This document shows, one piece after another, positions 2,652 to 59,502 of a stretch of 64,000 nt of DNA (its first letter is position 1; every line of letters starts with the position of its first letter). The notes under the pieces are model-generated. The model saw only the letters and a program-made list of their open reading frames with translations. It searched no databases and was not told the origin of the DNA. This stretch comes from Pyxidicoccus caerfyrddinensis (GTDB lineage: Bacteria; Myxococcota; Myxococcia; Myxococcales; Myxococcaceae): NCBI RefSeq assembly GCF_010894405.1, contig NZ_JAAIYA010000026.1:111494-175493 (forward strand), read 5' to 3'. A program made the position numbers and the translations under genes.

Positions 2652-3191
2652 ATGCGCATGCGAAAGCTGAGCTGGAGTGGCTTCGTGCTGTTCGGTCTGC
2701 TCGCCGGTTGCGCGAGCACGCCGGTGAAGGAGGAGCCGTCGGACGCCACCACGGAGGAGCGCCGTGAGGCGGAGGGCGGGGAGGAGGCGGAGGAGTCCAT
2801 CAAGAACACCACCTCCGAGGAGGGCAAGGCGCCCGTCCAGCCCATCATCGTGAGCGCGAGCCCGCAGGCGAAGGACCTCATCCGCATCGAGGGCATGCGC
2901 ATCCTGCGGGGCGTGCTGGACGTGAGCGTGTCCCACGGCGGCGGCTGCAAGGAGCACACGTACGCGCTGGCCTGGGACGGCACCTTCACCCAGGGCACGG
3001 ACGGCACGCCGGTGGCGAACCTGGTGCTGGTCCACGACGCCCACGAGGACCGCTGCAAGGCCATGAAGTACGCGACGCCGCGCTTCGACCTGGCGCCCAT
3101 CACCCAGGCCTTCCAGCAGAAGTACGGCAAGTCCACCGGCGCGGTGGACCTGGCCCTTCCGGGACAGGCCACCCTTCGCTACGAGTTCTGA
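2652..3191 (+). CDS. Lipoprotein, unknown function
   Basis: MRMRKLSWSGFVLFGLLAGC has a lipobox (LAGC), followed by an acidic linker (EERREAEGGEEAEES) and a folded C-terminal domain. The 3' end overlaps the convergent giant gene by 13 nt. Confidence 0.6.
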   Translation: MRMRKLSWSGFVLFGLLAGCASTPVKEEPSDATTEERREAEGGEEAEESIKNTTSEEGKAPVQPIIVSASPQAKDLIRIEGMRILRGVLDVSVSHGGGCKEHTYALAWDGTFTQGTDGTPVANLVLVHDAHEDRCKAMKYATPRFDLAPITQAFQQKYGKSTGAVDLALPGQATLRYEF

Positions 3192-42352: not shown

Positions 42353-45130
42353 TCAGGACAGCCGGAGTCCGGCGGGCAGCGTGTCGCCGAGCGCCCGGGC
42401 TTCGTCCGCCGCGTCCAGCGCCACCACCTCGCGCACCATGCGCAGCCAGGCCTCGGCCGCCTTCGCCGCGACGAGCTCCCGGGCGGTGCGCTCGCGCAGG
42501 GCGGGGTCCAAATCCCGCGTGCGGTCCCCGGTGAGCCGGGCCAGCTGCGCCGCCGCGAAGGGGGCGCCGTCAATCTTCTTCAGGTCCATGTCGAGCAGCA
42601 GCGTGAGCCACGCCTCCGCCGTCTCCACGTCCACCACCTTGTGGCTGCTGCCGTAGAGCGGCACGCGCGCGCCCAGCCGGCCCAGGGCCCAGGCCCAGGG
42701 GCCGCCGGACTTCGCCTCGGCCTTCAGTCGCGCGGCAATCCACCTGCCCACCTCGGACTTGTCCCCGGGCGACAGGTGCTCCAGCGAGGCCACGGTGCGG
42801 ACCATCTCCTCCAGCCCCTCCGGCTGGATGCCCTTGAGCTTCCCCGCGGGCGGCGCGTCCGGCGGCACCTTCCGCGCCAGGTGCGGCTGGAGGTACGCGT
42901 ACAGCTTCTGCTGCTGGGCCTCGGTGAGGCCGCCGGCGATGCGGCGCCACATCACCCAGAACTCCGTCCACACCGCCTTGTCCGAGTGGTGCTGCACCAG
43001 CGCGTCGAAGAGGCTGAAGGTCTGCTCCGAGCGCCAGCCGTCCAGCGGGTAGCCGAAGCCCGGACGCAGCGAGAAGCCGGTGAGGCTGTAGAAGACGCGC
43101 TCGTGGTCCTCCGTGCGCCGCCGCTTGCTGGCGCCCGCGTACAGGGTGCTCCACATCTCGCGCAGCACCGGCACGCGCCACGTCTCGCGCGGGCCCAGCG
43201 CCTTCTCCAGCGTGCGCCCCAGCTGCTTCACGTCCTTGGGGCCGATGGGCAGCGGCTTGTTGCCGTAGACGCGCTCGATGTTGTCCTTCGCCTCGACGAA
43301 GCGCGCGGGCATGGACTCGGTGACGGTCAGCTCGTGCGAGCCGCCGGTGCCGCGCAGCTCGAACTCCAGCCGCCAGCGCTCGTCCGCCACGTTGGAGACG
43401 CAGTACAGCTCCAGCGTGCCAATCTCCGTCAGCGCGGCCTGCAGGTGCACGGGGACTTCCGCCACCTTGCCGGTGGCGCCCTTGAGCAGCGTGTGGATGG
43501 GCGGCAGGGGCTTCAAGTCCTCCGCCAGCGGGACGAGGTCTCCCGGCTTGTCGATGCGGTCGCTCGTCGTGGAGTAGAGCTGGAACTGCACCGGCCGCCC
43601 GAGGGTGAGCGTGAAGGGGCGCTCGCCCAGGTCCACCTTCTGGCCCTCCTCGAAGCCGCGGGGGATGAGGCACAGCGCCGGCTGCTCCGCGCTGTCCGCC
43701 GGCCGCTGCAGGCCCACGTAATACGCGCGCGCCGCGCCACCACCGATGCGCAGGCCATGCCCGCGCCGCACCAGACCGTAGTACGCCGCGCCGCGCGCCA
43801 CCGCCAGCTCCAGCGAGGTGTGGCGCAGCAGGGGAATGCGCGGCGCGCCGGGCCACCACGCGGAGAGCGCCTGCACGAGCCGCTCGGAAATCTGGGGTGA
43901 GTTGAAGACGCCGCCGTTGAGGAGGATGGCGTCGGGGCGGGGCAGGGCGCCCTCGGCCGGAGCTGCCTCGCCCAGCGCCGCGAAGCCCGCCGCCGCGTGC
44001 TGCGCGAGGAAGGCCGCCAGGTGCCGCGTCACCGCCGGGTCCTGCACGTACGGCAGGCCCAGCTCCTGGAGCGCCATGCGCGCGGCGCGGCGCGGGCGCT
44101 CGGTGGGGGCAGAGGCCGGGAAGAAGCCGTCCAGCACCAGGGCGTGCGCCTCGTCGCGCAGCAGCTCCGTGGACAGCGTGCCGCCCAAGAGCCGGCTGCC
44201 CCCGCCCACCAGCGAGACGCCGTACTTCTCCGGAGGCTCATTGCCCAGCAGCGCCTCCTTCGCGGTGCGCGCGGCCTGGATGGCGTGCGTCCACTGCGTG
44301 GCGGACAGGCGCCGGCCGTCGGTGAAGAGCTTCTCCTCCACGCGGCGGGCCAGGGCGGCGTCCATGTTGTCGCCGCCCAGCATCAGGTGGTCGCCCACCG
44401 CGAGGCGCCGCAACATGGGCCCTTCCGGCGAGACGCCCGCGTGCACCAGCGTGAAGTCCGTGGTGCCGCCGCCCACGTCCACCACCAGCACCAGCCGCAC
44501 GTTGGAGAGCGTCTGCTCCAGGTCCGTCCGGTGGCGCGCGGTGTAGTCGTAGAAGGCCGCCTGTGGCTCCTCCAGCAGGGTGAACTTCTCCAGCCCCGCC
44601 TTGCGCGCGGCGCTCACCGTGAGGGCACGCGCGGCCTCGTCGAAGGAGGCGGGAACGGTAATCACCACCTCCTGCTTGGACAGCGGCGCGTCCGGGTGGG
44701 CGAAGTCCCAGGCGCGCGCCATGTGCGTCAGCAGGAGGGCGCTGGCGTCCACCGGCGAGAGCTTCTGCACGTCCGCCGGAGCGCCCCACGGGAGGATGGG
44801 CGCGGAGCGGTCCACGCCCGGGTGACACAGCCAGCTCTTGGCGCTGGAGACGAGGCGGCCCGGCACGCGGGCGCCCTGCCAGCGCGCCAGCTCGCCCACC
44901 ACCCACGGGCCGCCGTCATCGCCCCAGGGCAGCTTCAGCGACTCGGCGGCCAGCTCCTGGCCTGCGGGCACGTACACGGTGGAGGGCAGCAGCGCGCGGG
45001 GGGCTACCTCTCCCTGCCGGACGAGCTGGGGAATCGGGAAGTCCTCCACGGGGGCGCCCGCGCCCTTCGAGGGGTCCACGGACGCCACCGCGCAGTGGGT
45101 GGTTCCCAGGTCGATTCCGACGATTCGCAT
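42353..45130 (-). CDS. Hsp70-like ATPase (925 aa) with a non-canonical ~500-aa C-terminal region
   Basis: Actin-fold/Hsp70 phosphate and adenosine motifs IVGIDLGTTHCAVA, VITVPASFDEAAR, VLVVDVGGGTTDFTLV, MLGGDNMD. The C-terminal half lacks the DnaK substrate-binding beta-sandwich and lid sequence. GGAGG Shine-Dalgarno is present. Paralogous to the upstream gene. Confidence 0.85.
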   Translation of the reverse strand: MRIVGIDLGTTHCAVASVDPSKGAGAPVEDFPIPQLVRQGEVAPRALLPSTVYVPAGQELAAESLKLPWGDDGGPWVVGELARWQGARVPGRLVSSAKSWLCHPGVDRSAPILPWGAPADVQKLSPVDASALLLTHMARAWDFAHPDAPLSKQEVVITVPASFDEAARALTVSAARKAGLEKFTLLEEPQAAFYDYTARHRTDLEQTLSNVRLVLVVDVGGGTTDFTLVHAGVSPEGPMLRRLAVGDHLMLGGDNMDAALARRVEEKLFTDGRRLSATQWTHAIQAARTAKEALLGNEPPEKYGVSLVGGGSRLLGGTLSTELLRDEAHALVLDGFFPASAPTERPRRAARMALQELGLPYVQDPAVTRHLAAFLAQHAAAGFAALGEAAPAEGALPRPDAILLNGGVFNSPQISERLVQALSAWWPGAPRIPLLRHTSLELAVARGAAYYGLVRRGHGLRIGGGAARAYYVGLQRPADSAEQPALCLIPRGFEEGQKVDLGERPFTLTLGRPVQFQLYSTTSDRIDKPGDLVPLAEDLKPLPPIHTLLKGATGKVAEVPVHLQAALTEIGTLELYCVSNVADERWRLEFELRGTGGSHELTVTESMPARFVEAKDNIERVYGNKPLPIGPKDVKQLGRTLEKALGPRETWRVPVLREMWSTLYAGASKRRRTEDHERVFYSLTGFSLRPGFGYPLDGWRSEQTFSLFDALVQHHSDKAVWTEFWVMWRRIAGGLTEAQQQKLYAYLQPHLARKVPPDAPPAGKLKGIQPEGLEEMVRTVASLEHLSPGDKSEVGRWIAARLKAEAKSGGPWAWALGRLGARVPLYGSSHKVVDVETAEAWLTLLLDMDLKKIDGAPFAAAQLARLTGDRTRDLDPALRERTARELVAAKAAEAWLRMVREVVALDAADEARALGDTLPAGLRLS

Positions 45131-45155
45131 ACACCTCCGGTTGACGGACGGCTTT

Positions 45156-47018
<1,863 letters not shown>

Positions 47019-47035
47019 ATCGGACGGGAACTCCT

Positions 47036-47671
47036 TCAGGCGAGCTCGACTTCCGCGGGCGCCAGCACTCGCGGGTCCATGGCCGGGCTCACGGCGGGGA
47101 ACTTCACTTCCGTCGTCACCCAGCCGTGATGGCGCAGCGTCCCGTTGTAGGGAGGCTGGCCGGCCACGTTGCCGGTGAGGCGGATGCGCTGGGCGTCGAA
47201 GCCGGCGGGCACCGGGACGCCGTCCCCCTCCGACTGCGGCAGCACCGGCTGGAGGGTGAGGTATTGGTTCACTACCTTGCGGCAGCCCTCGTGGACGATG
47301 CGGGCCGCGGCCCCCACCTCGGCGTCCGAGAAGGCGGCCACGTTCTCCTGGAGGAAGTCCACGAAGCGGCCCTCGCGCTGGAGCATGCCCAGCACGGACA
47401 GGGCGCTGGCGTGCTCACGCTCGGGCGGCAGGGCGGGGGGCGGCTCGGGGGGCTTCACCACCGCCACCGCTACAGGCTTCGGCTGCTCCCTGGGCAGGGC
47501 GGCGGGCGCGGGGCCACCGGCCGGGAGCTGTGCGAGCTGGCCTGCGTCGTAGGCCCGGCTGGCTGGCAGCACCGCCTGGGCGAACTCGCGGGACACGAGG
47601 CAGCGCCAGAAGCACAGCCAGGCGAGCCAGAAGCGTGCGAAGAACGACAGGGAGGCGGACGGGTCGGTCAT
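47036..47671 (-). CDS. Small membrane protein; family unassigned
   Basis: Track ORF 47036..47857 trimmed to the internal ATG (MTDPSASLSFFARFWLAWLCFWRCLV has an N-terminal TM helix). The upstream track extension overlaps the tRNA and begins with TTG. Architecture is TM helix, then Pro/Ala-rich linker (PPEPPPALPPE), then a C-terminal domain. Confidence 0.55.
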   Translation of the reverse strand: MTDPSASLSFFARFWLAWLCFWRCLVSREFAQAVLPASRAYDAGQLAQLPAGGPAPAALPREQPKPVAVAVVKPPEPPPALPPEREHASALSVLGMLQREGRFVDFLQENVAAFSDAEVGAAARIVHEGCRKVVNQYLTLQPVLPQSEGDGVPVPAGFDAQRIRLTGNVAGQPPYNGTLRHHGWVTTEVKFPAVSPAMDPRVLAPAEVELA

Positions 47672-47777
47672 CGACTCCGGATAACAAAGCCCGCCTGCTT
47701 TGCAATTCAGCAAATGGAGGGAAGTGCCCCAAATGCAAAGGGCCTCACGGTTTCCCGTGAGGCCCTTCGGTTCTTCA

Positions 47778-47853
<76 letters not shown>

Positions 47854-48057
47854 ACAACCGGACTGCTGACTGCTCGCCTGCTGCGCCCCGGCGGCGTTGG
47901 GGCCGACGAAGTGGAACGGGCTAGTACCGGACCCCTTTCATGCTGTCAAGCGCAAGGCGCAGCCAATAATTCCTGCGATTGACGTGCCGCGCAGCGGATG
48001 CCATAAAAACCCCTCGTTTCAGGCGTAACCTTCCCGCCCGCTTCAACGCCCCCGGTA

Positions 48058-50538: not shown

Positions 50539-50761
50539 GAAGGTGCCTCCGGCGGGCGGTATGCACCGGACGTTTGCCTTCCCGAGCGCACCAGGAGACG
50601 GGGCCTGACGGCCTCACGTGGCGGAGGGGATGCCTGGCGGGCAGCCGTCCGTCGGAGGCATCTCCGGGTGCCGTGTCCTTGCCCACCCCCCGGTGGTGCC
50701 TGTATGGGAAGGCCGTTCCCGCGTCGGCAGCCCGTCTGTCGCGCCTTGCCCCGGAGTCTGT

Positions 50762-51646
50762 GTGAGCGCGCGTGCCGAGTCCCTGTCGACGACCGCGTCC
50801 GACCTGATCTCCCTGACGAAGCCGCGGCTGTCCAGCCTGGTGCTCATCACCACGGCGGGCGGCATGTTCCTGGCGCCCGGCCCGCTGAACACAGTGCGCG
50901 CGCTGGTGACGCTCTTGGCCACGGCCGGCACGGTGGGCGCGGCCAACTCGCTCAACTGCTACTGGGAGCGGCACAGCGACCAGTTCATGGCGCGCACCCG
51001 CAACCGGCCGCTGCCCTCGGGGCGGATGGAGCCGTCGGTGGCGCTGTGGTTCGGCATCTCCCTGGCGGCGGTGTCCCTGCCGGCGCTGGCGCTGGGCGCC
51101 AACCTGCTCACCGCGGGCCTGGGCCTGCTCGCGCTGCTCAGCTACGTGCTGGCCTACACGCCGCTCAAGGCGCGCACCTCCGCCGCCATGCTGGTGGGCG
51201 CGGTGCCCGGCGCGCTGCCTCCGCTGATGGGGTGGACGGCGGTGACGAACGTGTTGGACGCGGGCGGCTTCGCGCTCTTCGCCATCCTCTTCCTGTGGCA
51301 GATGCCGCACTTCATCGCCATCGCCCTGTTCCGCAAGGAGGAGTACGCGGCGGCGGGCCTCAAGTCCGTGCCGCTGGAGCGCGGGGACGAGTCCAGCCGC
51401 GCGCAGGTGGTGCTCTACCTGGTGGCGCTGGTGCCGATGACGCTCTTGCCCTTCCAGCTGAACATCTCCGGCTCGTGGTACCTGGCGGCGGCGGTGGTGC
51501 TGGGCCTGGGCTTCCTAGGCCTGGGGGCGTGGGGTTTCTTCCGCCGGCTCGGGAAGCCCTGGGCGCGCCAGACGTTCTTCTATTCGCTCATCTACCTCAC
51601 CGTCCTGTTCGCCGCGATGACGCTCGACCGCGTCCCGCGCGGCTAG
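50762..51646 (+). CDS. ctaB: Protoheme IX farnesyltransferase (heme O synthase)
   Basis: UbiA-family polyprenyltransferase with 8-9 TM segments. Motifs NSLNCYWERHSDQFMARTRNRPLPSG and the second Asp-rich region. Start assigned to the in-frame GTG at 50762 (VSARAESL...); exact start uncertain. Confidence 0.85.
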   Translation: MSARAESLSTTASDLISLTKPRLSSLVLITTAGGMFLAPGPLNTVRALVTLLATAGTVGAANSLNCYWERHSDQFMARTRNRPLPSGRMEPSVALWFGISLAAVSLPALALGANLLTAGLGLLALLSYVLAYTPLKARTSAAMLVGAVPGALPPLMGWTAVTNVLDAGGFALFAILFLWQMPHFIAIALFRKEEYAAAGLKSVPLERGDESSRAQVVLYLVALVPMTLLPFQLNISGSWYLAAAVVLGLGFLGLGAWGFFRRLGKPWARQTFFYSLIYLTVLFAAMTLDRVPRG

Positions 51647-51673
51647 CGCGCAGGGTGCCGGGGGAAGTCACTC

Positions 51674-52663
51674 ATGCCTGATACCTCGGTCTCCACCCCT
51701 CCGGCGCCGCTGCTCCAGCTCGAAGGCCTCACGCGGCGCTTCAAGGGCCGCATCGCCGTGGACGGCTTGAGCCTGTCCGTGCGGCAGGGCGAAATCCTGG
51801 GCCTCCTGGGCCCCAACGGCGCGGGCAAGTCCACCACCTTCCAGGTGCTGGCGGGGCTCCTGGCTCCGGACGCGGGAGAGGTGCGCTTCGCCGGGAAGGT
51901 GCTGGCGCTGAGCGACCCGTCGCTGCGGCGGCAGATGGGCATCATCTTCCAGCGCAGCAGCCTGGATGACCTGCTCACCGCGCGGGAGAACCTGATGCTC
52001 GGGGCCCGGCTGTACGGCCTGGGCGGCGAGCGGGCGCGCGAGCGGGTGGAGGCGATGCTCGCGCTCATCGGCCTGCAGGACCGGGGCGACGAGAAGGTGG
52101 GCATCTGGTCCGGCGGCATGCGCAGGCGGCTGGAGCTGGCGCGTGCGCTGGTGCACCAGCCGCGCGTGGTGCTGATGGACGAGCCCACGCAGGGCCTGGA
52201 CGAGGCGGCCTTCCGCACCTTCTGGGCGCACCTCAAGCGGCTGCGCGACAGCGAGGGCGTCACGGTGCTGCTCACCACGCACCGCGCGGACGAGGCCGAG
52301 GTGTGCGACAGGCTCGCGGTGCTGGACGCGGGCAAGCTGGTGGCGTGTGACACGCCGGCGGCGCTGGCCTCGCGCATGGGCGGGGACATCCTCTCGCTGG
52401 AGGCGGCCGAGCCGGAGGCGCTGGCGCGCGAGGTGCGCGAGCGGCTGGGGCTGGACGCGAAGGTGGTGGAGGGGAGGGTGCAGGTGGAGGCCACAGAGGG
52501 CCATGCGCTGGTGCCCCGGCTGGTGGAGGCCTTCCCGGCCGGGCGGCTGACCTCCGTGTCGCTGCGCCGGCCCACGCTGGCGGACGTGTTCCTCCAGCTC
52601 ACGGGGCGCGCGCTGGGGGCGGACAAGCCCGCCGCCGAGCCCGCGCCGAGGAGACGCCGATGA
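51674..52663 (+). CDS. ABC transporter ATP-binding protein
   Basis: Walker A GPNGAGKST, Q-loop, ABC signature SGGMRRRLELARAL, Walker B VVLMDEPTQGLD, and H-loop. Confidence 0.9.
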   Translation: MPDTSVSTPPAPLLQLEGLTRRFKGRIAVDGLSLSVRQGEILGLLGPNGAGKSTTFQVLAGLLAPDAGEVRFAGKVLALSDPSLRRQMGIIFQRSSLDDLLTARENLMLGARLYGLGGERARERVEAMLALIGLQDRGDEKVGIWSGGMRRRLELARALVHQPRVVLMDEPTQGLDEAAFRTFWAHLKRLRDSEGVTVLLTTHRADEAEVCDRLAVLDAGKLVACDTPAALASRMGGDILSLEAAEPEALAREVRERLGLDAKVVEGRVQVEATEGHALVPRLVEAFPAGRLTSVSLRRPTLADVFLQLTGRALGADKPAAEPAPRRRR

Positions 52664-53529
52664 ACGCCGAGGTTTCCGCCGCTCCTCCGCCCGTGGAGGC
52701 CCCGCAGCCGCTGGAGGCCCGTGTGCCGGCTCCTGTCGCACCGGGCTCGCTCGCGCTGCAGTGGGCGACGGTGCGCGTGCTGCTGGTGCGCGACGTGGTG
52801 CGCTTCTTCCGTCAGCCCAGCCGCGTGGTGGGGGCGTTGGCGCAGCCCATCCTCTTCTGGTTCGTCATCGGCTCCGGCTTCGCGGGCTCGTTCCGCGTGG
52901 AGGGCGCGCAGGGGCTGGGCTACCAGCAGTTCTTCTTCCCCGGCGTCGTCACCATGGTGCTGCTGTTCAGCGCCATCTTCGCGACGATTACCGTCATCGA
53001 GGACCGGCGCGAGGGCTTCCTCCAGGCGGTGCTCGCCGGGCCGGGTTCGCGGCTGGCGGTGGTGCTGGGCAAGGCGCTGGGCTCGTCGGCGATTGCGCTG
53101 ATGCAGGCGTCGCTGTTCCTGCTGCTGGCCCCGCTGGCCGGGGTGAGCGCGGCCACGCTCGACCTGCCGCTGCTGCTGACGGTCATGGTGCTGTCCGCGC
53201 TGGCGCTCACCGGCATGGGCATGTCGCTGGCATGGTGGGTGCGCTCCAGCGCGGGCTACCACGCGGTGATGAGCATCGTCCTGCTGCCCATGTGGGTGCT
53301 GTCCGGGGCGATGTTCCCGCTCAAGGGCGCGGGCTCCTGGCTGGCGTGGGTGATGCGCGTGAATCCCATGCGCTTCTCCGTGGAGGGCGTGCGGCGCGCG
53401 CTGTACGGCGTGGAGGCGTCCGCGGCGGTGGGCCCCGCGTCCGTGGCGGGGCTGGAGGTGCCGGTGCTGCTCGCCTTCGCCACCGTGTTCGTGGGCCTGG
53501 CCGCCTTCAGCGTCAGCCGGCGCGAGTAG
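52660..53529 (+). CDS. ABC-2 type transporter permease
   Basis: Six predicted TM segments. Start overlaps the ATPase stop (ATGA). Topology matches an ABC-2 family permease. Confidence 0.8.
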   Translation: MNAEVSAAPPPVEAPQPLEARVPAPVAPGSLALQWATVRVLLVRDVVRFFRQPSRVVGALAQPILFWFVIGSGFAGSFRVEGAQGLGYQQFFFPGVVTMVLLFSAIFATITVIEDRREGFLQAVLAGPGSRLAVVLGKALGSSAIALMQASLFLLLAPLAGVSAATLDLPLLLTVMVLSALALTGMGMSLAWWVRSSAGYHAVMSIVLLPMWVLSGAMFPLKGAGSWLAWVMRVNPMRFSVEGVRRALYGVEASAAVGPASVAGLEVPVLLAFATVFVGLAAFSVSRRE

Positions 53530-53615: not shown

Positions 53616-54482
53616 ATGACGCTGCGCACGCTCGGTCTGACGCTGTTGGGGACCGCGGGCCTGCTGGCCCTTCCCGCCTGCCAGAAGGAGGAGGCTCCGG
53701 CCGCTCCGACTCCGGCTGCCACCGCCCCGCAGCCCGCCGCGCCCACGCCCGCGCCCGAGGCCAAGCAGCACGCTGCCACGCCCATCCAGGAGCCCGGCGC
53801 GCAGGGGACCGCGCCCGCCGTTCCAGCCATCCCCGCCGGCAAGGGCGTGGTGCGCGGCACGGTGACGTTCACCGGCACGGCGCCCGTGGCGGCCGACCTG
53901 CCGCCGAGCAATGACCCTGCCTGCGAGGGCATGTCGATGAAGGACGCCTCGGTGCTGGTGAAGGACGGCAAGCTGGCGAACGTGCTGGTGCGCGTGCGCG
54001 GCAACGTGCCGGGCGCGCCGCCCGCGCCGTCGGCTCCGGTGCTGGTGGACCAGTCGAAGTGCACCTATGTGCCGCGCGTGCAGGGGGCGATGGTGGGCCA
54101 GCCGGTGGCCTTCAAGAACAGCGACGGGACGCTGCACAACGTGCGCGGACTGGTGGGCACGAAGTCCGCCTTCAACGTGGCGCAGCCGCCGTCGGGCGCG
54201 CAGGTGCAGAAGACCTTGCCCGCGGACGCGGAGGTGCTCAAGCTCAAGTGCGACGTGCACCCGTGGATGACGGCGTTCGTGGTGACGAACCCGAATCCGT
54301 ACTTCGCCACCACGGGCGCGGACGGCACGTTCAGCCTCCAGGGCCTGCCCGCCGGGAAGTACACGGTGGAGGCCTGGCACGAGTCGCTCGGCACGAAGAC
54401 GGCCGAAGTCACGGTGAAGGACGACGCGCCGGCCGAGGCCTCCTTCGCCTTCTCCGCGACGGACGCCTCCGCGAAGAAGTGA
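53616..54482 (+). CDS. Lipoprotein with a cupredoxin-like (type-1 copper) C-terminal domain
   Basis: Signal peptide and lipobox LLALPAC. GAGGAG Shine-Dalgarno upstream. Pro/Ala-rich linker. The C-terminal domain has a plastocyanin-like ligand arrangement: GTLHNVRG (His-Asn motif) and KCDVHPWMTAFVV (C-x2-H-x2-M followed by a hydrophobic strand). Confidence 0.6.
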   Translation: MTLRTLGLTLLGTAGLLALPACQKEEAPAAPTPAATAPQPAAPTPAPEAKQHAATPIQEPGAQGTAPAVPAIPAGKGVVRGTVTFTGTAPVAADLPPSNDPACEGMSMKDASVLVKDGKLANVLVRVRGNVPGAPPAPSAPVLVDQSKCTYVPRVQGAMVGQPVAFKNSDGTLHNVRGLVGTKSAFNVAQPPSGAQVQKTLPADAEVLKLKCDVHPWMTAFVVTNPNPYFATTGADGTFSLQGLPAGKYTVEAWHESLGTKTAEVTVKDDAPAEASFAFSATDASAKK

Positions 54483-54495
54483 GCGTGTCGAAACG

Positions 54496-55992
54496 ATGAG
54501 CACGCACGGGCTCGCGCGGGTGCGGTGGTGGTACCTGCGCGGGCTCGGGTTCGTTTTCTGTCTCGCGTTCGCCTCGCTGCTCCCGCAGTTGCCCGAGCTG
54601 CTCGGACCTCAGGGACTGAGCCCCGCCGCGGAGTGGCTCGACCAGGTCCGTGAGTATCTGGGTGGCGAAGGACGCATGCTGCGCGTGCCCACGCTGCTGT
54701 GGCTCACGGGGGCGAGCACCGGGGCCTTGCGGGGCGTGAGCATCGCGGGCCTCCTGTGCGGCCTGCTGCTGGTGGTGGATGTGGCGCCGCGCTACGCGCT
54801 GGTGGGCGCGTGGGCCGCGTACCTGTCCATCACCACCGTGGGCGGCGTGTTCCTCAGCTTCCAGTGGGACGTGCTGCTGCTGGAGACCGCGCTCGTCTCG
54901 CTGCCGCTCACACCCGGACACCTGTGGCCGCCGCGCGTGGCATCGGAGCCGCGCCGTGAGGCGGTGCTCCTCGTCCGCTTCCTGTTGTTCCGGCTGATGG
55001 TGATGTCCGGCCTCGTGAAGCTCGCGAGTGGCGCCCCGACGTGGCGCGACTTCACCGCGCTCGAGTACCACTACTGGACGCAGCCGCTGCCGAATGCGCT
55101 GGCGTACTTCGCGCACCAGCTTCCGGCGGGGCTGCAGCGGGCCAGCGCGGTGGCCATGTTCATCATCGAGTTGATGGTGCCGTTCTTCCTCTTCGGGCCC
55201 CGGCGCGTGCGGCTCGCGGCGGCCGCGCTGCTGGTGCTGCTCCAGGTGGGCATCTTCGCCACCGGGAGCTATGGCTTCTTCAACCTGCTGACGCTCGTGC
55301 TGTGTTTCGCCGCGCTCGATGACGGCGTGCTGCGCCGGCTGCGCTTCCCGAAGCTCGGGGAGGAGGGTGCTCCACCAGCGCCGCGCTCACGGTGGGGCAC
55401 CGCGGCCTTCACCGTGTTCGCCGGCGGCTATGCCGTGCTCGCGCTGTCGCAGGATGCGCGCCGCCTCATGCGCTGGAGTCCTCCGTCGCTGGTGTCGACG
55501 GTGCTCGAAGCCGTGAATCCCTTCAACAGCATCAACACCTACGGCCTCTTCGCGGTGATGACCACGCAGCGCGAGGAAATCGTCATCGAGGGCAGCGACG
55601 ACGGGCAGACGTGGTACGAGTACCTCCTGCGCTGGCGCCCGGGCCCGGTGGACGAGCGGCCCCGCGTGGCCGCGCCGCACATGCCCCGGCTGGACTGGCA
55701 GATGTGGTTCGCCGCGCTGTCCACCTGCCGCGACAATCCGTGGCTCTTGCGCCTCCAGGACGCGCTGCTCCGGGGCGAGCCCCAGGTGCGCGACTTCTTC
55801 CGCAAGGGCTCGCTGCCGGACACGCCTCCACGCTACGTGCGCACCGTCCTCTACGACTACCGCTTCACGGACTTCGCGACGTGGCGCTCCACGGGCGCCT
55901 GGTGGACCCGGCGGGCGGTAGGCCCCTATTGCCCGCCGCTCATGCTGCGGGATGGGCAATTGCAGCGGGCGGACCCGACTTCTTCACCGTGA
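54496..55992 (+). CDS. Lipase maturation factor (LMF1/DUF1222) family polytopic membrane protein
   Basis: Many TM segments in the N-terminal two-thirds and a C-terminal soluble domain with conserved Trp/Cys (RLDWQMWFAALSTCRDNPW), the typical architecture of bacterial LMF-family proteins. Confidence 0.65.
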   Translation: MSTHGLARVRWWYLRGLGFVFCLAFASLLPQLPELLGPQGLSPAAEWLDQVREYLGGEGRMLRVPTLLWLTGASTGALRGVSIAGLLCGLLLVVDVAPRYALVGAWAAYLSITTVGGVFLSFQWDVLLLETALVSLPLTPGHLWPPRVASEPRREAVLLVRFLLFRLMVMSGLVKLASGAPTWRDFTALEYHYWTQPLPNALAYFAHQLPAGLQRASAVAMFIIELMVPFFLFGPRRVRLAAAALLVLLQVGIFATGSYGFFNLLTLVLCFAALDDGVLRRLRFPKLGEEGAPPAPRSRWGTAAFTVFAGGYAVLALSQDARRLMRWSPPSLVSTVLEAVNPFNSINTYGLFAVMTTQREEIVIEGSDDGQTWYEYLLRWRPGPVDERPRVAAPHMPRLDWQMWFAALSTCRDNPWLLRLQDALLRGEPQVRDFFRKGSLPDTPPRYVRTVLYDYRFTDFATWRSTGAWWTRRAVGPYCPPLMLRDGQLQRADPTSSP

Positions 55993-57445
55993 AGCCCACC
56001 CGCGCGCCCCCCCCGGCGCGGTTCTCCGCGAAGGCCTCACCTCCGTGGGCGCGCGCAATCCGCTGCACCAGCGCCAGCCCCAGTCCCAGCGAGCCCGCCT
56101 CGCGGGCCTCGCCGCCCCGGTCCTTCCGGTAGAAGGGCTGGAAGATGCGCACCTCCTCGCCCGGCAGGAGCCCCTGGCCCCGGTCGTCCACGAAGAAGGC
56201 GAGGTGCTCGCCGCGCTCCTGGACGCGCAGCGCCTCCGCGCCCGCGCCATGTCGCCGCGCGTTCTCCAGCAGGTTGGCCAGCGCCCGCCCCAGCAGCGTC
56301 GCGTCTCCCTGCAGGCCCGCCTCCGCCGCCTCCACGTCCAGCAGCTCCACTGGCAGCCCCGCGCGCTCCAGCGCCTGCGCCGCGAGCGTGCGCCCGTCCA
56401 GCACCCGCGACGTGAGCTGCCCGAAGTCCAGCCGCGAGCTGGCCAGCAGCTCGCCCACCAGCGCGTCCAGCTCCACCACCTCGCGGTCCACCTGGTCCAG
56501 CGTCTTCGGGTTGCCTCCGCCGTCGCGCAGCAGCTCCGTCAGCACGCGCATGCGGGCCAGCGGCGTACGCAGCTCGTGCGACACCGCGGCGAGCATCTCG
56601 CGCTGGTCCGCCACCTGCTTCTCGATGCGGCCCGCCATGTCGTTGAAGGCGACGGCCAGCACGGCGAACTCGCCCGTGGTGTGCGGGAGCACCTCGGCGC
56701 GCGCGTTCAGCTTCCCCGCGCCCAGCGCCTCGGTGGCCTTCACCAGCGCGTCCACCGGCCGGGCCAGCCGCCGGGCCAGCTTCCCCGCGGCGAGCCACAG
56801 CACTGCTCCAGCGAGCACCAGCGGCAGCGCCACCCGGAGCGGGTTCTTCGGACGGAAGGGGGAGTAGCACGCCCGCACCATCCCCAGCGGGACGCCGTCG
56901 CGCTCCACGGGGACACTCAGCTCGGAGCGCCGGCACGGCTCGCCCCCGCGCACCAGCAGTGCGCCGGAGGTGTCCCGCAGCTCCACGCCAATCTCCAGGT
57001 CCGTGGCGATGGAGTGCACCAGCGCGTCGCGCCGCGCGGGCTCGTTCCAGACCTCCTCGAAGCGGTGGCCCACGAAGGTCCGCATCCGGTCGGTCTCCTG
57101 CTTCCACGTGTTGCCGCCCACCAGGTTCATCACCGTCACCACCACGAGGCCCGTGGCGAGGATGGACAGCCCGAACCAGAGGAAGAGGCGCCGGTGCAGC
57201 CGCGCGCGCACGAAGTGCCCCAGCCGGCCCATGCGCCAGTACCGGTGCCGCCAGCGCGCGTGCGCCCGCATGTGCCGCCGCCAGGCCGCGGGGCCATGCC
57301 CATGTCCCCAGGGACCATGCCCCCAGTGCTCCATGCCGTGGCCCGGGGAAGCACCCTCGGGCTTTTGTTCGGAGTCCTCCTCGTGAAGACCGCAGTCGGG
57401 GCCACAGTCGGGCCCGTGGCCCCAGTCGCGCCGGCGGCCTCTCAT
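55940..57445 (-). CDS. Sensor histidine kinase (HAMP-HisKA-HATPase) with an unusual His/Trp/Gly-rich N-terminal extension
   Basis: H-box AAVSHELRTPLARM, N-box NLLENARRHG, G-boxes DDRGQGL and GLGLALV. Two TM helices flank a ~110-aa periplasmic domain. A ~90-aa N-terminal region (DWGHGPDCGPDCG...MEHWGHGPWGHGHGP...HMRAHARWRHRYW) precedes TM1. The ATG overlaps the response-regulator stop (ATGA). Confidence 0.85.
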   Translation of the reverse strand: MRGRRRDWGHGPDCGPDCGLHEEDSEQKPEGASPGHGMEHWGHGPWGHGHGPAAWRRHMRAHARWRHRYWRMGRLGHFVRARLHRRLFLWFGLSILATGLVVVTVMNLVGGNTWKQETDRMRTFVGHRFEEVWNEPARRDALVHSIATDLEIGVELRDTSGALLVRGGEPCRRSELSVPVERDGVPLGMVRACYSPFRPKNPLRVALPLVLAGAVLWLAAGKLARRLARPVDALVKATEALGAGKLNARAEVLPHTTGEFAVLAVAFNDMAGRIEKQVADQREMLAAVSHELRTPLARMRVLTELLRDGGGNPKTLDQVDREVVELDALVGELLASSRLDFGQLTSRVLDGRTLAAQALERAGLPVELLDVEAAEAGLQGDATLLGRALANLLENARRHGAGAEALRVQERGEHLAFFVDDRGQGLLPGEEVRIFQPFYRKDRGGEAREAGSLGLGLALVQRIARAHGGEAFAENRAGGGARVGFTVKKSGPPAAIAHPAA

Positions 57446-58122
57446 GGCCCCTCTTTGGCGAAGACGTAGCCCACGCCGCGCACCGTCTTGATGAGACGCG
57501 TCCCGACGTCGCCCAGCTTCTGCCGCAGATGCGAGATGTGCACGTCCACCGTGCGCTCGCCCACCACCGTGTCACTGCGCCCGGCCTCGCCCAGCAGCGC
57601 GTCGCGAGGAATGACCCGCCCGGCCCGGCGCACCAGCGCCACCAGCAGGTCGAACTCCAGGCCCGTCAGGTCCACCAGCCGGTCCTCCACGCGCACCTCG
57701 CGGCCGGCCACGTCGATGGACACGCCGCCCGCCTCCAGCCGGTCCGCCACCGCCGACGGCTGCGAGCGGCGCAGCACCGCGCGCAGGCGGGCCAGCAGCT
57801 CGCGGGGGCTGAATGGCTTGGGCAGGTAGTCGTCCGCGCCCAGCTCCAGCCCCACCACCCGGTCCGTCTCGTCGCCCTTCGCGGTGAGCATGACGACCGG
57901 GATGCGGCTCTTGGCGCGGATGCGCTTGCACACCTCCAGACCGTCCATGCCCGGCATCATCACGTCCAGCAGCACCGCGTCGTAGGCCCCGGCCTCCAGC
58001 GCCGCCAGGCCGCGCCCACCGTCGGGCGCGTGGGTGACGCTGAGGCCGTTCTGCCCGAGGTACTGCGCGAGCAGCTCGTACAGCCGGGTGTCGTCGTCGA
58101 TGAGCAGGACTCGCGTGGACAT
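57442..58122 (-). CDS. OmpR/PhoB-family response regulator
   Basis: Receiver domain (VLLIDDD...DAVLLDVMMPGMDGLEV...LTAKGD) with the phospho-acceptor Asp, and a C-terminal winged-helix DNA-binding domain. Confidence 0.9.
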   Translation of the reverse strand: MSTRVLLIDDDTRLYELLAQYLGQNGLSVTHAPDGGRGLAALEAGAYDAVLLDVMMPGMDGLEVCKRIRAKSRIPVVMLTAKGDETDRVVGLELGADDYLPKPFSPRELLARLRAVLRRSQPSAVADRLEAGGVSIDVAGREVRVEDRLVDLTGLEFDLLVALVRRAGRVIPRDALLGEAGRSDTVVGERTVDVHISHLRQKLGDVGTRLIKTVRGVGYVFAKEGP

Positions 58123-58137
58123 GTACGGCCTCTGACT

Positions 58138-58401
58138 CTAGCGCGCTCCCTCGCCAGGCGCGGGGGGCTCGGAGGGACTGGGGGCTGCGACGGACGGGGC
58201 CGAGGCCCCCCTGGGCGCGCGAGACTCCCACGACTCGCTCGGGCCCCGCGAGCCCCAGCGGCGCTCCCACCGGTCCTCCCCGCGCTCTCCCCACGCGCTG
58301 GAGTGGCAGGAGTGACGGTGGTGGGCAAGGCGGGCGAAGCCGGAGGCATAGCCTCCGACGGTGCCCATGGCGAGCAGGACTATCAGCAGGCGGCGGCGCA
58401 T
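58138..58401 (-). CDS. Small secreted His/Trp-rich protein
   Basis: Signal peptide MRRRLLIVLLAMGTVGGYASG, then HHRHSCHSSAWGERGEDRWERRWG. Sits between the CpxP-like gene and the regulator. Confidence 0.4.
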   Translation of the reverse strand: MRRRLLIVLLAMGTVGGYASGFARLAHHRHSCHSSAWGERGEDRWERRWGSRGPSESWESRAPRGASAPSVAAPSPSEPPAPGEGAR

Positions 58402-58449
58402 GGTGCGTTCTCCTTTGCGTTGATGAAGACGGCTGTCATGGGGAGCGGG

Positions 58450-58959
58450 TCAGACCATCTGCTCGCCGTGCCCCCGCCAGCCGCCGCGCCCACCGCACCG
58501 GCCATGGCCGCCGTAGCCGCCTCGCCAGCCGTAGCCGAAGCCGTGCTCGATGAGGTCCGCCAGCTCGCGGCGCTGGCGCGGGTCCAGGGCCTCGTGCACC
58601 TGAGACAGCCCGCCCTGCACCGTGCGGCGCAGGTTGTCGAGCGCCACGTCATGGCGCGCGAACAGCTCGCGCAGCGCGTCCCCGTCGAAGTGCTCGCCCC
58701 GCAGCGCGGTGCCGAGGGCGGTGCGGCTCGGGCCCACCTCGTCGCGCACCTTGGCGAAGGCCTCCGTTACTTCTTCCACCGTCTTGACGATGACCTTCTC
58801 CTGGCCGGGAGACGTCTCCAGGCGCTCGAACAGCCAGCGCAGCCGGGCGCGGCCCCAGCGCCCTCCGCCGCGGTGATGGGAGTGATGCCAGTGGCGCCCG
58901 CCGCGCAGCGTGAAGATGAGCCCCGCGAGGCACGCGGTACCGAAGAGAAATCCGAACAT
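58450..58959 (-). CDS. CpxP/Spy/ZraP-like periplasmic protein with His-rich N-terminus and Gly/Trp/His-rich C-terminus
   Basis: N-terminal membrane anchor or signal (FGFLFGTACLAGLIFTL), then HWHHSHHRGGGRW, a helical core with an LTxxQ-like element (LDPRQRRELADLIE), and a tail GYGWRGGYGGHGRCGGRGGWRGHG. Heads an operon with the two-component system. Confidence 0.5.
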   Translation of the reverse strand: MFGFLFGTACLAGLIFTLRGGRHWHHSHHRGGGRWGRARLRWLFERLETSPGQEKVIVKTVEEVTEAFAKVRDEVGPSRTALGTALRGEHFDGDALRELFARHDVALDNLRRTVQGGLSQVHEALDPRQRRELADLIEHGFGYGWRGGYGGHGRCGGRGGWRGHGEQMV

Positions 58960-59298
58960 GGTGCTGTGCTCCCCAGAAGTGCCGTGCCCGGGAAGGGCCG
59001 GCGTTGTTGACGGGGAGAAAGGTAGAAGGCGGGTGTGAAGCGCGCGCCCGAGCCCCGTGAAGAAGTGTGAAGGGGTCCTCCGGACTCGGAATGGAGCGGA
59101 GAGCCCGGTCGGTTTTCCCTAGCGAGCGACGCTCCTTCCTGGGAGTGTCCGCCGTCCGACGCCTGCTCGCCTAGCGGGGAGGGGGACGGTGGACATTCAC
59201 CCGCAGGGTGGATTGTCGTATCGGTGTTGGGGCGATGTCCGCTCCGCACGGGCAGCCCGGAAGTCCGGACCGCCGCAAAGCAGAAAGAAGAAGGTCAC

Positions 59299-59502
59299 AT
59301 GGCAATCGGTACTGTGAAGTGGTTCAACGACGCCAAGGGGTTCGGCTTCATCGCGCAGGACAACGGTGAGGACGTTTTCTGCCACCACTCGGCCATCAAC
59401 ATGGATGGCTTCCGCACCCTCCAGGAGGGGCAGAAGGTGGAGTTCGAGGTGACCCGCGGTCCCAAGGGACTGCAGGCCCAGAACGTCCGCGCGGCTGGCT
59501 AG
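59299..59502 (+). CDS. cspA: Cold-shock protein (CspA family)
   Basis: [51 protein letters not shown] contains RNP1 (KGFGFI) and RNP2 (VFCHH) motifs. GAAGAAGG Shine-Dalgarno upstream. Track ORF trimmed to the internal ATG. Confidence 0.95.

What the first reader, a model, noticed from the sequence alone, without database searches (positions are those of the whole stretch)
55940..58959. Envelope-stress or metal-sensing module: His-rich CpxP-like protein, small His-rich secreted protein, OmpR-type regulator, and a kinase with a His/Trp/Gly-rich cytoplasmic N-extension
All four genes are co-directional. The regulator and kinase are translationally coupled (ATGA).

Three of the four products carry His-rich low-complexity patches: HWHHSHHRGG and GYGGHGRCGGRGGWRGHG; HHRHSCHSS; GHGPDCGPDCG...HWGHGPWGHGHGP. 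The last one sits on the cytoplasmic side of the kinase, before TM1. That is an unusual place for a sensing element, and it might sense cytoplasmic metal or redox state.

Together with the adjacent copper-related cluster, this suggests Zn/Cu-responsive envelope homeostasis.
Basis: partly seen in the sequence, partly recalled or inferred. Interest (0 to 1): 0.55.

Follow-up and report, generated by a model that had tools for sequence, protein, structure and literature searches.

The report
Myxobacterial metal-type sensor operon, His-rich tails
This is a real, widely conserved but unstudied four-gene signalling operon of myxobacteria, in which the sensor kinase's histidine-rich front end is genuinely translated and its helper protein probably faces the inside of the cell rather than the periplasm, as its database name says.

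Summary
Four co-directional minus-strand genes lie at 58959-55940: a 169-aa PF13801 (CnrX/ZraP-type) protein, an 87-aa small membrane or secreted protein, an OmpR-type regulator and a CpxA-like kinase. The regulator and kinase share an ATGA overlap, and all quoted His-rich patches are present.

The kinase N-extension is not a start-codon artefact. In about 40 related loci the kinase start overlaps or abuts the regulator stop, while the pre-TM1 segment ranges from 13 to 115 aa. GC3 is coding-like. His is 14% there against 1.7% in the rest of the protein. 19 of 105 orthologues lack the internal Met.

The cassette is a large uncharacterised family: 1,397 clusters at 50% identity, and 39 of 45 metagenome loci keep the same regulator downstream. 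Three TTCAC direct repeats upstream of gene 1 (59071-59035) are conserved and probably form the regulator's autoregulatory box.

The helper protein starts with a hydrophobic helix at residue 1, followed by an Arg cluster. This predicts a cytoplasm-facing domain, unlike CpxP, ZraP or CnrX. Its Gly/His/Cys C-tail co-occurs with the kinase tail.

The metal specificity is inferred, not shown. The "adjacent copper cluster" is weak. Verdict: a new variant of an accessory-protein-modulated two-component system.

The parts
59019..59071 (-). Candidate regulator box and promoter. Three TTCAC direct repeats lie at 59071-59067, 59061-59057 and 59039-59035, spaced 10 and 22 nt apart. A conserved TACCTT follows at 59024-59019, 60 nt upstream of the gene-1 ATG.
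   Evidence: The element is nearly invariant in 15 aligned upstream regions, including a paralogue, while the flanks diverge. TTCAC-N5-TTCAC with at most 1 mismatch occurs 73-176 nt upstream of gene 1 in 47 of 63 metagenome loci, and in none of the available same-length control coding segments. It is the only exact site in the 64-kb window and the only one in roughly 10-kb orthologous loci. Binding by the regulator is inferred.
58450..58959 (-). Gene 1: a 169-aa PF13801 (CnrX/ZraP-type) helical protein. It has an N-terminal hydrophobic helix (residues 1-18), an Arg/His/Gly/Trp linker (19-36), a helical core (37-139) with LETSPGQ and LDPRQ motifs, and a Gly/His/Arg/Trp/Cys C-tail (140-169).
   Evidence: Pfam E 4e-10, above the cut-off. 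AF2 helices at 3-18, 37-47, 51-86, 93-124 and 127-139. Foldseek gives CnrXs, NccX, STV, CpxP and Spy. The family has 1,397 representatives, and 137 of the best 150 start with M[FL]GF... within the first 6 residues.
58138..58401 (-). Gene 2: an 87-aa small protein. It has MRRR, a hydrophobic segment, a conserved GGYASGFA motif, then a juxtamembrane RLAHHRHSCH motif and a variable Trp/Pro-rich tail. It is a signal peptide or N-in anchor with its C-terminus outside.
   Evidence: AAGGAG ribosome-binding site; GC3 0.88. Conserved in 10 orthologous loci. An ORF of at least 30 aa fills 49 of 52 gene1-regulator gaps in metagenome loci, and most of these show the MRR-TM-G[YF][AG]SG-His/Cys pattern. No Pfam or NCBIfam hit.
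57442..58122 (-). Gene 3: a 226-aa OmpR/PhoB-family response regulator (receiver domain plus winged helix).
   Evidence: Response_reg E 2e-31 and Trans_reg_C E 5e-22. All NCBIfam equivalogs (MtrA, PhoB, OmpR, CpxR, CopR...) score below their cut-offs. It is 60-95% identical across cassettes.
57442..57445 (-). ATGA overlap of the regulator stop and the kinase start (translational coupling).
   Evidence: A start overlapping or abutting the regulator stop (-4, -1, +1 to +6 nt) is kept in nearly all related loci. The conserved regulator C-terminus AKEG encodes the AAGGAGG/AAAGAGGGG Shine-Dalgarno sequence.
57233..57445 (-). Kinase residues 1-71: a cytoplasmic N-terminal tail rich in His, Trp, Gly, Pro and Arg, with two Cys (C14, C18). 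Residues 1-50 are predicted disordered. Residues 52-71 form a basic and aromatic helix.
   Evidence: Composition; AF2 pLDDT below 50 for residues 1-50. The tail is retained with variable length and sequence in orthologues. GC3 is 0.85.
55940..57232 (-). Kinase core. It comprises the conserved juxtamembrane MGRLGHFVRARLHRR (72-86), TM1 (87-110), a periplasmic alpha/beta sensor domain (111-201) with invariant C171 and C193, TM2 (202-224), HAMP, HisKA (H289 region) and HATPase_c.
   Evidence: Pfam; CpxA 4biu 8e-32. The alignment shows an invariant Cys pair. AF2 pLDDT is 94-98 for the sensor domain. Foldseek finds PDC/PAS-like sensor domains, including WalK, CusS and BaeS.

Best explanation
This is an autoregulated two-component system with two accessory proteins, conserved across Myxococcota. 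It most likely reports the load of a transition metal (Zn/Ni/Co/Cu type), or a metal-linked redox stress, at the inner membrane.

Proposed mechanism:
1. The phosphorylated OmpR-type regulator binds the three TTCAC direct repeats at 59071-59035 and drives the whole operon.
2. The first and most abundant product is a CnrX/ZraP-fold protein tethered by an N-terminal helix. Its His/Gly/Arg/Trp/Cys linker and C-tail bind metal. It feeds back on the kinase, in the way CpxP acts on CpxA and ZraP on ZraS.
3. The flanking charges predict that this protein's domain sits on the cytoplasmic face. There it meets the kinase's translated, disordered His/Trp/Cys-rich N-terminal tail.
4. The small second protein places a His/Cys motif on the periplasmic side, next to the kinase's PDC-like sensor domain, which has an invariant Cys pair.

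Shown here: gene content, family memberships, translation signals of the tail, conservation of the cassette and of the operator, and co-occurrence of the two tails.

Inferred: metal binding, regulator-operator binding, feedback on the kinase, and the topology of the accessory proteins.
For: - Genes and domains.
- Tail translated: the kinase start overlaps or abuts the regulator stop in 12 genome loci and about 30 metagenome loci, while the pre-TM1 length varies from 13 to 115 aa. GC3 is 0.83-0.94 in the extension. 19 of 105 orthologues have Leu, Arg or Thr instead of the internal Met. His, Trp and Pro are enriched 3-8 fold.
- Cassette conserved: 12 of 12 Myxococcus, Corallococcus and Pyxidicoccus-related loci; 39 of 45 metagenome loci with enough downstream sequence; a paralogous copy in Archangium. 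The family is large.
- Operator.
- CnrX/ZraP-type fold.
- Topology: 137 of 150 representatives start the hydrophobic run within 6 residues, with N-flank net charge 0 and C-flank median +4.
- Tail co-occurrence: an accessory-protein C-tail of at least 20 aa goes with a kinase tail of at least 9 aa in 19 loci. Both are short in 9 loci and one is mixed (Fisher 1e-6). One nested lineage lost both.
- Periplasmic side: an invariant Cys pair in the sensor domain and a conserved His/Cys motif in the small protein.
Against: - There are no expression, binding or metal data. No literature on this cassette was found.
- The profile of gene 1 does not hit ZraP, CpxP, Spy or CnrX by sequence in the PDB. Foldseek E-values are only 0.1-1, and the AF2 model has a mean pLDDT of 65.
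- The topology rests on the positive-inside rule alone. Canonical family members are periplasmic.
- The tail co-occurrence reflects few independent events: about one gain and one joint loss.
- Open-frame statistics are weak in 72%-GC DNA, because one reverse frame also has no stops.
- Low-complexity His/Gly/Arg runs could be neutral expansions.
- Many cassettes work without any kinase tail, so the tail is not essential to the basic mechanism.
Confidence: 0.55

Rival explanations
1. Classical Cpx/Zra-like arrangement. The 169-aa protein is anchored N-in with its domain in the periplasm, like CnrX and NccX. It inhibits the kinase through the periplasmic sensor domain, possibly together with the small protein. 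The cytoplasmic His-rich tail of the kinase is an independent or passive appendage.
For: PF13801 membership and best fold matches to periplasmic CnrXs, NccX, CpxP and Spy, including full-length membrane-anchored NccX 4clv aligned over 145 columns. The kinase has a well-folded periplasmic sensor domain with an invariant Cys pair. The small protein's His/Cys motif is predicted to be periplasmic. NCBI and JGI name the family "periplasmic heavy metal sensor" or "Spy/CpxP".
Against: There is no positively charged n-region in 137 of 150 representatives. A net +4 cluster directly follows the hydrophobic helix, which by the positive-inside rule blocks export of the C-terminal side. The Cys/His/Gly-rich linkers, up to 93 aa, sit immediately after that helix. 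The accessory C-tail co-occurs with the unambiguously cytoplasmic kinase tail. The database names are automatic, derived from the Pfam family.
Confidence: 0.3
2. The system senses something other than metal, such as envelope protein misfolding or periplasmic thiol-redox state through the Cys pair of the sensor domain and the Cys of the small protein. The His/Gly/Arg/Trp-rich segments would then be neutral low-complexity expansions typical of high-GC myxobacterial proteins.
For: C171 and C193 are invariant and the small-protein Cys is conserved. The tails vary greatly in length and sequence and are absent in many cassettes. The kinase transmitter is closest to CpxA. No metal-transport genes are linked.
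Against: His at 14% and Trp at 6.6% are not what GC-driven drift gives. Gly, Ala, Arg and Pro would dominate instead. His/Cys-rich character is kept across lineages despite sequence turnover. A [DE]xC[GIEA]P Cys motif recurs in the Myxococcus, Corallococcus and Pyxidicoccus tails. The accessory protein belongs to the family of metal sensors CnrX and ZraP.
Confidence: 0.2
3. The kinase N-extension is an annotation artefact. Translation starts at the conserved internal Met72 (MGRLG...), as in the 430-aa models of many database entries, and the 213 nt upstream are an untranslated spacer.
For: 86 of 105 orthologues keep a Met at that position, and many pipelines-446-aa proteins. An open frame alone is weak evidence at 72% GC. 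GC3 in codons 1-37 is only 0.78.
Against: A start codon in the kinase frame overlaps or abuts the regulator stop in nearly every locus, whatever the spacer length. The Shine-Dalgarno sequence lies in the conserved regulator tail. There is no Shine-Dalgarno sequence before Met72. Corallococcus and Hyalangium-type orthologues have Leu, Arg or Thr there and no alternative start. His and Trp enrichment and coding-like GC1<GC3 and GC2<GC3 patterns are seen in all lineages.
Confidence: 0.05

Closest known systems
CpxP-CpxA-CpxR envelope stress system (E. coli)
   Same: An OmpR-type regulator and a two-TM HAMP kinase whose cytoplasmic part is the best PDB and NCBIfam match (4biu 8e-32; NF007007 147 bits). 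A small helical accessory protein of the CpxP/Spy/ZraP/CnrX fold class is encoded at the locus. It is probably under control of the system itself (autoregulation inferred from the operator).
   Different: The equivalog scores are far below their cut-offs: CpxA 147 against 486 and CpxR 179 against 341. The accessory gene is first in the same operon rather than divergent. The operator is TTCAC repeats, not GTAAA-N5-GTAAA (the CpxR box is recalled from memory). The accessory protein has no signal peptide and is predicted to face the cytoplasm. The cassette adds a small His/Cys membrane protein and a His-rich kinase tail.
ZraP-ZraS-ZraR zinc-responsive system (E. coli and Salmonella)
   Same: The accessory protein has Gly/His/Cys-rich N- and C-terminal segments flanking a helical LTxxQ-type core. 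Here these are HHRGGGRWG and GGHGRCGGRGGW; in ZraP they are HGGHGMW and GGCGGGGHMGMGHW (the ZraP sequence is recalled from memory). The family is PF13801. The logic of an accessory protein as both main output and feedback repressor is shared.
   Different: ZraR is a sigma-54 NtrC-type activator, whereas this regulator is OmpR-type. ZraP is a soluble periplasmic protein with a cleaved signal peptide. The profile of this family finds no ZraP in the PDB by sequence.
CnrY-CnrX-CnrH and NccYXH nickel/cobalt sensors (Cupriavidus)
   Same: These are the best structural matches: CnrXs 2y3d and 3epv, and NccX 4clv. They share an N-terminal membrane helix followed by a helical hairpin, and are paired with a small single-pass protein encoded next door.
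   Different: The output here is a two-component system, not an ECF sigma and anti-sigma pair. The charge distribution around the anchor is inverted (the CnrX N-terminus is recalled from memory). By eye, the CnrX ligands H42 and H46 are not conserved. Only H122 may correspond to H119 (not formally tested).
MgrB-PhoQ (and SafA, MzrA) small membrane-protein feedback on histidine kinases
   Same: Gene 2 encodes a short N-in single-pass or secreted peptide with a conserved Cys/His motif on the periplasmic side. It is co-expressed with the kinase it could modulate. MgrB also depends on periplasmic cysteines (from memory).
   Different: There is no sequence relationship. Any function in this cassette is entirely inferred.
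Heavy-metal two-component systems CusRS, CopRS and CzcRS
   Same: An OmpR-type regulator and a two-TM kinase with a PDC-like periplasmic domain. The CusS sensor domain is among the fold matches.
   Different: TIGR01386 scores 107 against 292.55 and TIGR01387 scores 181.5 against 279.2, so the family cut-offs are not met. No efflux or oxidase genes are linked. M. xanthus CorSR is sigma-54 type and unrelated (PMC3707914).

Membership tests
Pfam PF13801 Metal_resist (CnrX/ZraP-type) | HMM score above the gathering threshold | tested here: met
   40.4 bits against 29.2, residues 8-131 on profile positions 2-124 of 125. Homologues carry PF13801 and often PF07813 LTXXQ.
Pfam PF13801 / CpxP-Spy-ZraP-CnrX fold class | Hooked helical-hairpin fold | tested here: inconclusive
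   The AF2 core has pLDDT 74-86 with four helices. The top Foldseek hits are CnrXs, NccX, STV, CpxP and Spy, with probability 0.77-0.99 and target TM about 0.6, but E-values of only 0.1-1.
CpxP/Spy/ZraP | Two LTxxQ motifs | tested here: inconclusive
   Variant motifs are invariant in the family: L[ED]T[ST]PGQEK and LDxxQRxxL. They are not literal LTxxQ.
CpxP/Spy/ZraP/CnrX | Periplasmic location (cleaved signal peptide or N-in anchor) | tested here: not met
   The hydrophobic helix starts at residue 1-6 in 137 of 150 representatives, with N-flank charge 0 and a C-flank median of +4. The positive-inside rule predicts N-out and C-in. This is a prediction only.
CnrX | Metal ligands H42, H46, E63, H119 (M123) | not tested
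   Compared by eye only. H122/E123 are conserved in this family. The N-terminal His pair is not evident.
Cpx system | CpxA and CpxR equivalog HMMs above cut-off | tested here: not met
   CpxA NF007007 scores 147.5 against 486 and covers only residues 222-485. CpxR NF008199 scores 179.2 against 341.
ZraPSR | Sigma-54-dependent NtrC-type regulator | tested here: not met
   The regulator has Response_reg plus Trans_reg_C only.
CusRS/CopRS/CzcRS heavy-metal TCS | TIGR01386 and TIGR01387 above cut-off | tested here: not met
   107.4 against 292.55 and 181.5 against 279.2.
CnrYXH-type ECF signalling | Linked ECF sigma factor and anti-sigma factor | tested here: not met
   No sigma factor lies in the cassette or its flanks. 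The same-strand partner is the regulator-kinase pair in 39 of 45 loci.
OmpR/PhoB-family response regulators | Receiver domain plus winged-helix Trans_reg_C | tested here: met
   E 1.8e-31 and 4.6e-22.
Class I (HisKA) transmembrane sensor kinases | TM1, periplasmic domain, TM2, HAMP, HisKA, HATPase_c | tested here: met
   Pfam HAMP, HisKA and HATPase_c. The AF2 model shows two long membrane helices around an alpha/beta domain.

The most novel reading that the evidence does not exclude
The PF13801 protein is the first inward-facing member of the CpxP/Spy/ZraP/CnrX class. It would be tethered by an N-out helix, with its helical domain and its Gly/His/Cys tail on the cytoplasmic face of the membrane. 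There it would form a metal-bridged (His/Cys) contact with the disordered His/Trp/Cys-rich N-terminal tail of its kinase. The kinase would then integrate cytoplasmic-face metal status, through its tail and the accessory protein, with a periplasmic input, through the PDC-like domain with its Cys pair and the small His/Cys peptide.
Probability: 0.35. Interest if true: 0.75.

Novelty: new variant of a known kind. Interest (0 to 1): 0.55.

Why it matters
Accessory-protein control of histidine kinases (CpxP, ZraP, MgrB) is a central theme in envelope-stress and metal sensing. All known CpxP/ZraP/CnrX-class partners act in the periplasm.

This cassette is abundant in soil Myxococcota (about 1,400 sequence clusters at 50% identity) and has not been studied, as far as the searched literature shows. 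It offers a clean system for two questions. Can this fold be used on the cytoplasmic face? Can a disordered His-rich N-terminal tail of a kinase act as a sensing or docking element?

It also supplies a precise, testable operator (TTCAC repeats). It corrects two likely annotation errors in public databases: truncated kinase starts, and the name "periplasmic heavy metal sensor".

Tried and rejected
- Start-codon artefact: tested with 12 genome loci and about 30 metagenome loci and rejected. Counting stop codons was uninformative at this GC content.
- Membership in Cpx, Zra, Cus/Cop/Czc, Bae, Rst, Mtr or Pho: all NCBIfam equivalogs score below their cut-offs.
- M. xanthus CorSR as the known homologue: rejected, because CorR is sigma-54 type and lies in a cuoA-copA operon (PMC3707914).
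- Sequence-profile search of the PDB with the gene-1 family: only designed helical bundles at E above 0.03, and no ZraP, CpxP or CnrX.
- Literature searches (ZraP, CpxP, PF13801 or "periplasmic heavy metal sensor" with Myxococcus): nothing on this cassette.
- Sigma-70 consensus promoter scan of 55800-59400: no hit.
- "Adjacent copper cluster": Pfam and NCBIfam scans of the neighbours gave heme o synthase, a DrrAB-like ABC-2 exporter, TPR, LMF1, cupin, CspA, and S41 and S26 peptidases. The only copper-related result was a weak amicyanin-like match in one lipoprotein.
- Extra operator sites that might define a regulon: none in the window or in roughly 10-kb flanks of related loci.
- Total length of the gene-1 low-complexity segments (linker plus C-tail) against kinase tail length: no significant correlation (rho 0.28, p 0.14). 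The C-tail length on its own does correlate (rho 0.55, p 0.002), and so does the His count of linker plus C-tail against kinase-tail His (rho 0.57, p 0.001).

Full report
**1. Observation**

The window is about 72% GC. By best protein matches it comes from a Pyxidicoccus-like myxobacterium.

Four minus-strand ORFs occupy exactly the stated interval:
- 58959-58450, 169 aa
- 58401-58138, 87 aa
- 58122-57442, 226 aa
- 57445-55940, 501 aa

The last two share ATGA. All quoted His-rich strings are present. Codon-position GC is coding-like for all four ORFs, with GC3 of 0.88-0.95. The small ORF has an AAGGAG ribosome-binding site.

The kinase has HAMP, HisKA and HATPase_c domains after a second hydrophobic segment. 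Residues 1-86 are therefore cytoplasmic.

**2. Is the kinase N-extension translated?**

Database models of orthologues range from 427 to 625 aa. Many start at a conserved internal Met (M72 here), and others carry His/Pro/Gly/Trp/Arg-rich extensions.

I examined the DNA of 12 orthologous genome loci (Myxococcus, Corallococcus) and about 30 more distant metagenome cassettes. Nearly all have an ATG, GTG or TTG in the kinase frame that overlaps or abuts the regulator stop (ATGA/GTGA/TTGA, TGATG, or +1 to +6 nt). Meanwhile the segment before the conserved juxtamembrane motif varies from 13 to 115 aa.

Further points:
- The Shine-Dalgarno sequence for this start is encoded in the conserved regulator C-terminus AKEG.
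- No Shine-Dalgarno sequence precedes M72.
- GC3 in the extensions is 0.83-0.94.
- 19 of 105 orthologues have Leu, Arg or Thr at the M72 position and no other start.
- The extensions are 14.3% His, 6.6% Trp and 15.2% Pro, against 1.7%, 1.3% and 4.4% in the rest of the proteins. GC-rich non-coding DNA would not give this.
- A [DE]xC[GIEA]P cysteine motif recurs in the Myxococcus, Corallococcus and Pyxidicoccus tails.
- Stop-codon counting was not informative at this GC content.
- AlphaFold models residues 1-50 as disordered and residues 52-71 as a basic and aromatic helix that leads into the juxtamembrane helix and TM1.

Conclusion: the tail is translated. It is a lineage-specific expansion, because basal cassettes have only about 13 residues before TM1.

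**3. What the four genes are**

*Gene 1* passes the Pfam threshold for PF13801 Metal_resist, the CnrX/ZraP family. Its AF2 core is a four-helix hairpin. The best PDB fold matches are CnrXs, NccX, STV, CpxP and Spy, with high probability but weak E-values. A sequence profile did not find these proteins.

*Gene 3* is an OmpR/PhoB-family regulator.

*Gene 4* has a transmitter closest to CpxA (4biu 8e-32). Every NCBIfam equivalog (CpxA/R, BaeS/R, RstB, EnvZ/OmpR, CusS/R-type, PhoR/B, MtrB/A) is far below its cut-off. The periplasmic domain is confidently modelled (pLDDT 94-98) as a small alpha/beta PDC/PAS-like sensor, with matches to WalK, CusS, BaeS and LapD-like domains. It carries two invariant cysteines, C171 and C193.

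*Gene 2* has no family. It is nonetheless conserved as MRR-hydrophobic-G[YF][AG]SG.AS followed by a His/Cys motif. The motif is RH..C in Myxococcaceae and FE.HVA..C in more distant cassettes.

**4. The cassette is a large, conserved, unstudied family**

The order gene1-gene2-regulator-kinase is kept in all Myxococcus and Corallococcus loci and in a paralogous copy in Archangium.

A profile of gene 1 finds 1,397 representatives at 50% clustering with E at or below 1e-3, and 803 at or below 1e-10. Of 45 metagenome loci with at least 700 nt downstream, 39 carry the orthologous regulator (60-95% identity) on the same strand. The kinase follows wherever the contig allows. A named member comes from "Myxococcales bacterium" MAGs.

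Literature searches found nothing on this system. The characterised M. xanthus copper system CorSR is sigma-54 type and unrelated.

**5.

I aligned 330 nt upstream of gene 1 from 15 loci. One block is almost invariant in otherwise diverged sequence: CCTTCACACTTCTTCAC-N16/17-CTTCACACCCG-N6-TACCTT.

In the window the three TTCAC repeats are at 59071-59067, 59061-59057 and 59039-59035, spaced 10 and 22 nt apart. TACCTT is at 59024-59019, 60 nt before the ATG.

TTCAC-N5-TTCAC with at most 1 mismatch lies 73-176 nt upstream of gene 1 in 47 of 63 metagenome loci and in none of the available same-length control coding segments. It is unique in the 64-kb window and in the flanks of related loci. Stand-alone gene-1 copies keep a variant (CTTTACGAATCTTCAC).

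Direct repeats at about one helical turn are the usual site type of OmpR/PhoB-family regulators (established knowledge). I infer that this is the regulator's box and that the operon is autoregulated.

**6. Topology and the link between the tails**

In 137 of the best 150 family representatives, gene 1's product starts with a hydrophobic run within the first six residues (M[FL]GFxxGTxCLxGL...). There is no charged N-flank, and the following 15 residues have a median net charge of +4. A Gly/His/Arg/Cys/Trp linker of 15-93 aa follows.

By the positive-inside rule this gives N-out and C-in. That is the opposite of CnrX, NccX, ZraP and CpxP, and it contradicts the automatic name "periplasmic heavy metal sensor".

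Independently, the Gly/His/Cys C-tail of gene 1's product co-occurs with the kinase's cytoplasmic N-tail. Both are long in 19 loci, both short in 9, and one is mixed (Fisher 1e-6). On a regulator tree this is about one joint gain and one joint loss (L104), so the number of independent events is small.

Together these results favour an accessory protein acting on the cytoplasmic face, but they do not prove it. The small protein is predicted N-in and C-out. Its His/Cys motif would then sit beside the periplasmic sensor domain with its Cys pair.

**7. Mechanism and rivals**

Best-supported reading (confidence 0.55): this is an autoregulated two-component system modulated by two accessory proteins. 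It reports transition-metal or metal-linked redox stress at the inner membrane. The PF13801 protein is both the main output and a feedback partner of the kinase, following CpxP/ZraP logic, and is probably inward-facing. The kinase tail is a metal-binding or docking element.

Rivals:
- A classical periplasmic CpxP/ZraP-like arrangement (0.3).
- A non-metal signal with neutral low-complexity tails (0.2).
- A start-codon artefact (0.05).

**8. Surroundings**

The convergent downstream genes are:
- an LMF1-family gene, present only in this lineage
- a lipoprotein with a CarboxypepD_reg domain and only E 0.3-0.8 similarity to amicyanin (C-x2-H-P-x-M loop)
- a DrrAB-like ABC-2 exporter
- a heme o synthase

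Upstream and divergent are a CspA-type gene and a cupin. The neighbours scanned (about 39.6-63.1 kb) include no cop, cus, cue or czc genes.

**9. Verdict**

The finding is real, and its key doubt (the start codon) is resolved in its favour. It is a new variant of a known kind, namely an accessory-protein-modulated two-component system. Three features are worth experimental follow-up:
- the conserved TTCAC operator
- the predicted inward-facing CnrX/ZraP-fold protein
- the co-occurring His-rich tails

Function and signal remain inferred.

Noticed in passing
window 55940-55992: The 3' ends of the kinase gene (minus strand, stop at 55940) and the convergent LMF1-family gene (plus strand, 54496-55992) overlap by 53 nt. 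The LMF1 gene is absent from this position in all 12 Myxococcus and Corallococcus loci, where the kinase is followed directly by the cupredoxin-like lipoprotein gene.
   Followed up: partly
window 53616-54482 (+): A lipoprotein (LLALPAC lipobox) with a C-terminal CarboxypepD_reg domain and a central region carrying H...C-D-V-H-P-W-M. This resembles the amicyanin type-1 copper loop. The PDB sequence matches to amicyanin and blue copper domains have E of only 0.3-0.8. It is syntenic with the cassette in Myxococcaceae.
   Followed up: partly
window 50618-53529 (+): A heme o synthase (TIGR01473, 283.8 bits against a cut-off of 210.3) is followed by an ABC ATPase and an ABC-2 permease (DrrAB-like, below cut-off). 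This looks like a cytochrome-oxidase-biogenesis neighbourhood rather than a copper-resistance cluster.
   Followed up: partly
L014 4322-7236 (Archangium MAG) and L013: A paralogous copy of the whole four-gene cassette: accessory protein 40% identical, regulator 72%, kinase 47%. It has its own short His-rich kinase N-terminus (MFPHHHHPRMRMHRRP...) and the same TTCAT/TTCAC operator.
   Followed up: partly
L052, L090, L092, L095 (metagenome loci): These gene-1 homologues keep a variant operator (CTTTACGAATCTTCAC) about 75 nt upstream. L052 and L092 have enough downstream sequence to show that no regulator or kinase follows. L090 and L095 are too short to tell. The variant operator suggests that extra copies belong to the same regulon.
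   Followed up: no
window 57188-57232 and 58830-58860 (-): The kinase juxtamembrane segment (FVRARLHRRLF) and the first helix of the accessory protein's core (GRARLRWLFERL) share an RARL-x2-3-LF pattern. Both are conserved in their families. Whether this is coincidence or mimicry is unknown.
   Followed up: no
window 42353-47857 (-): A three-gene set: a DUF2760 protein, an HSP70-like protein, and an HSP70-like protein with a DUF3731 ("DnaK-related") C-terminal domain.
   Followed up: no
window 3179-21622 (-): Two very large coding-like ORFs of 2,667 and 3,472 aa, with GC3 0.95. They were not examined.
   Followed up: no
public annotations of orthologues (P0002, P0005, P0008, P0020 and others): Many RefSeq and PGAP models of the kinase start at internal Met codons (427-446 aa) and so drop the His-rich tail. 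The accessory protein is uniformly auto-named "periplasmic heavy metal sensor" despite lacking an export signal.
   Followed up: yes
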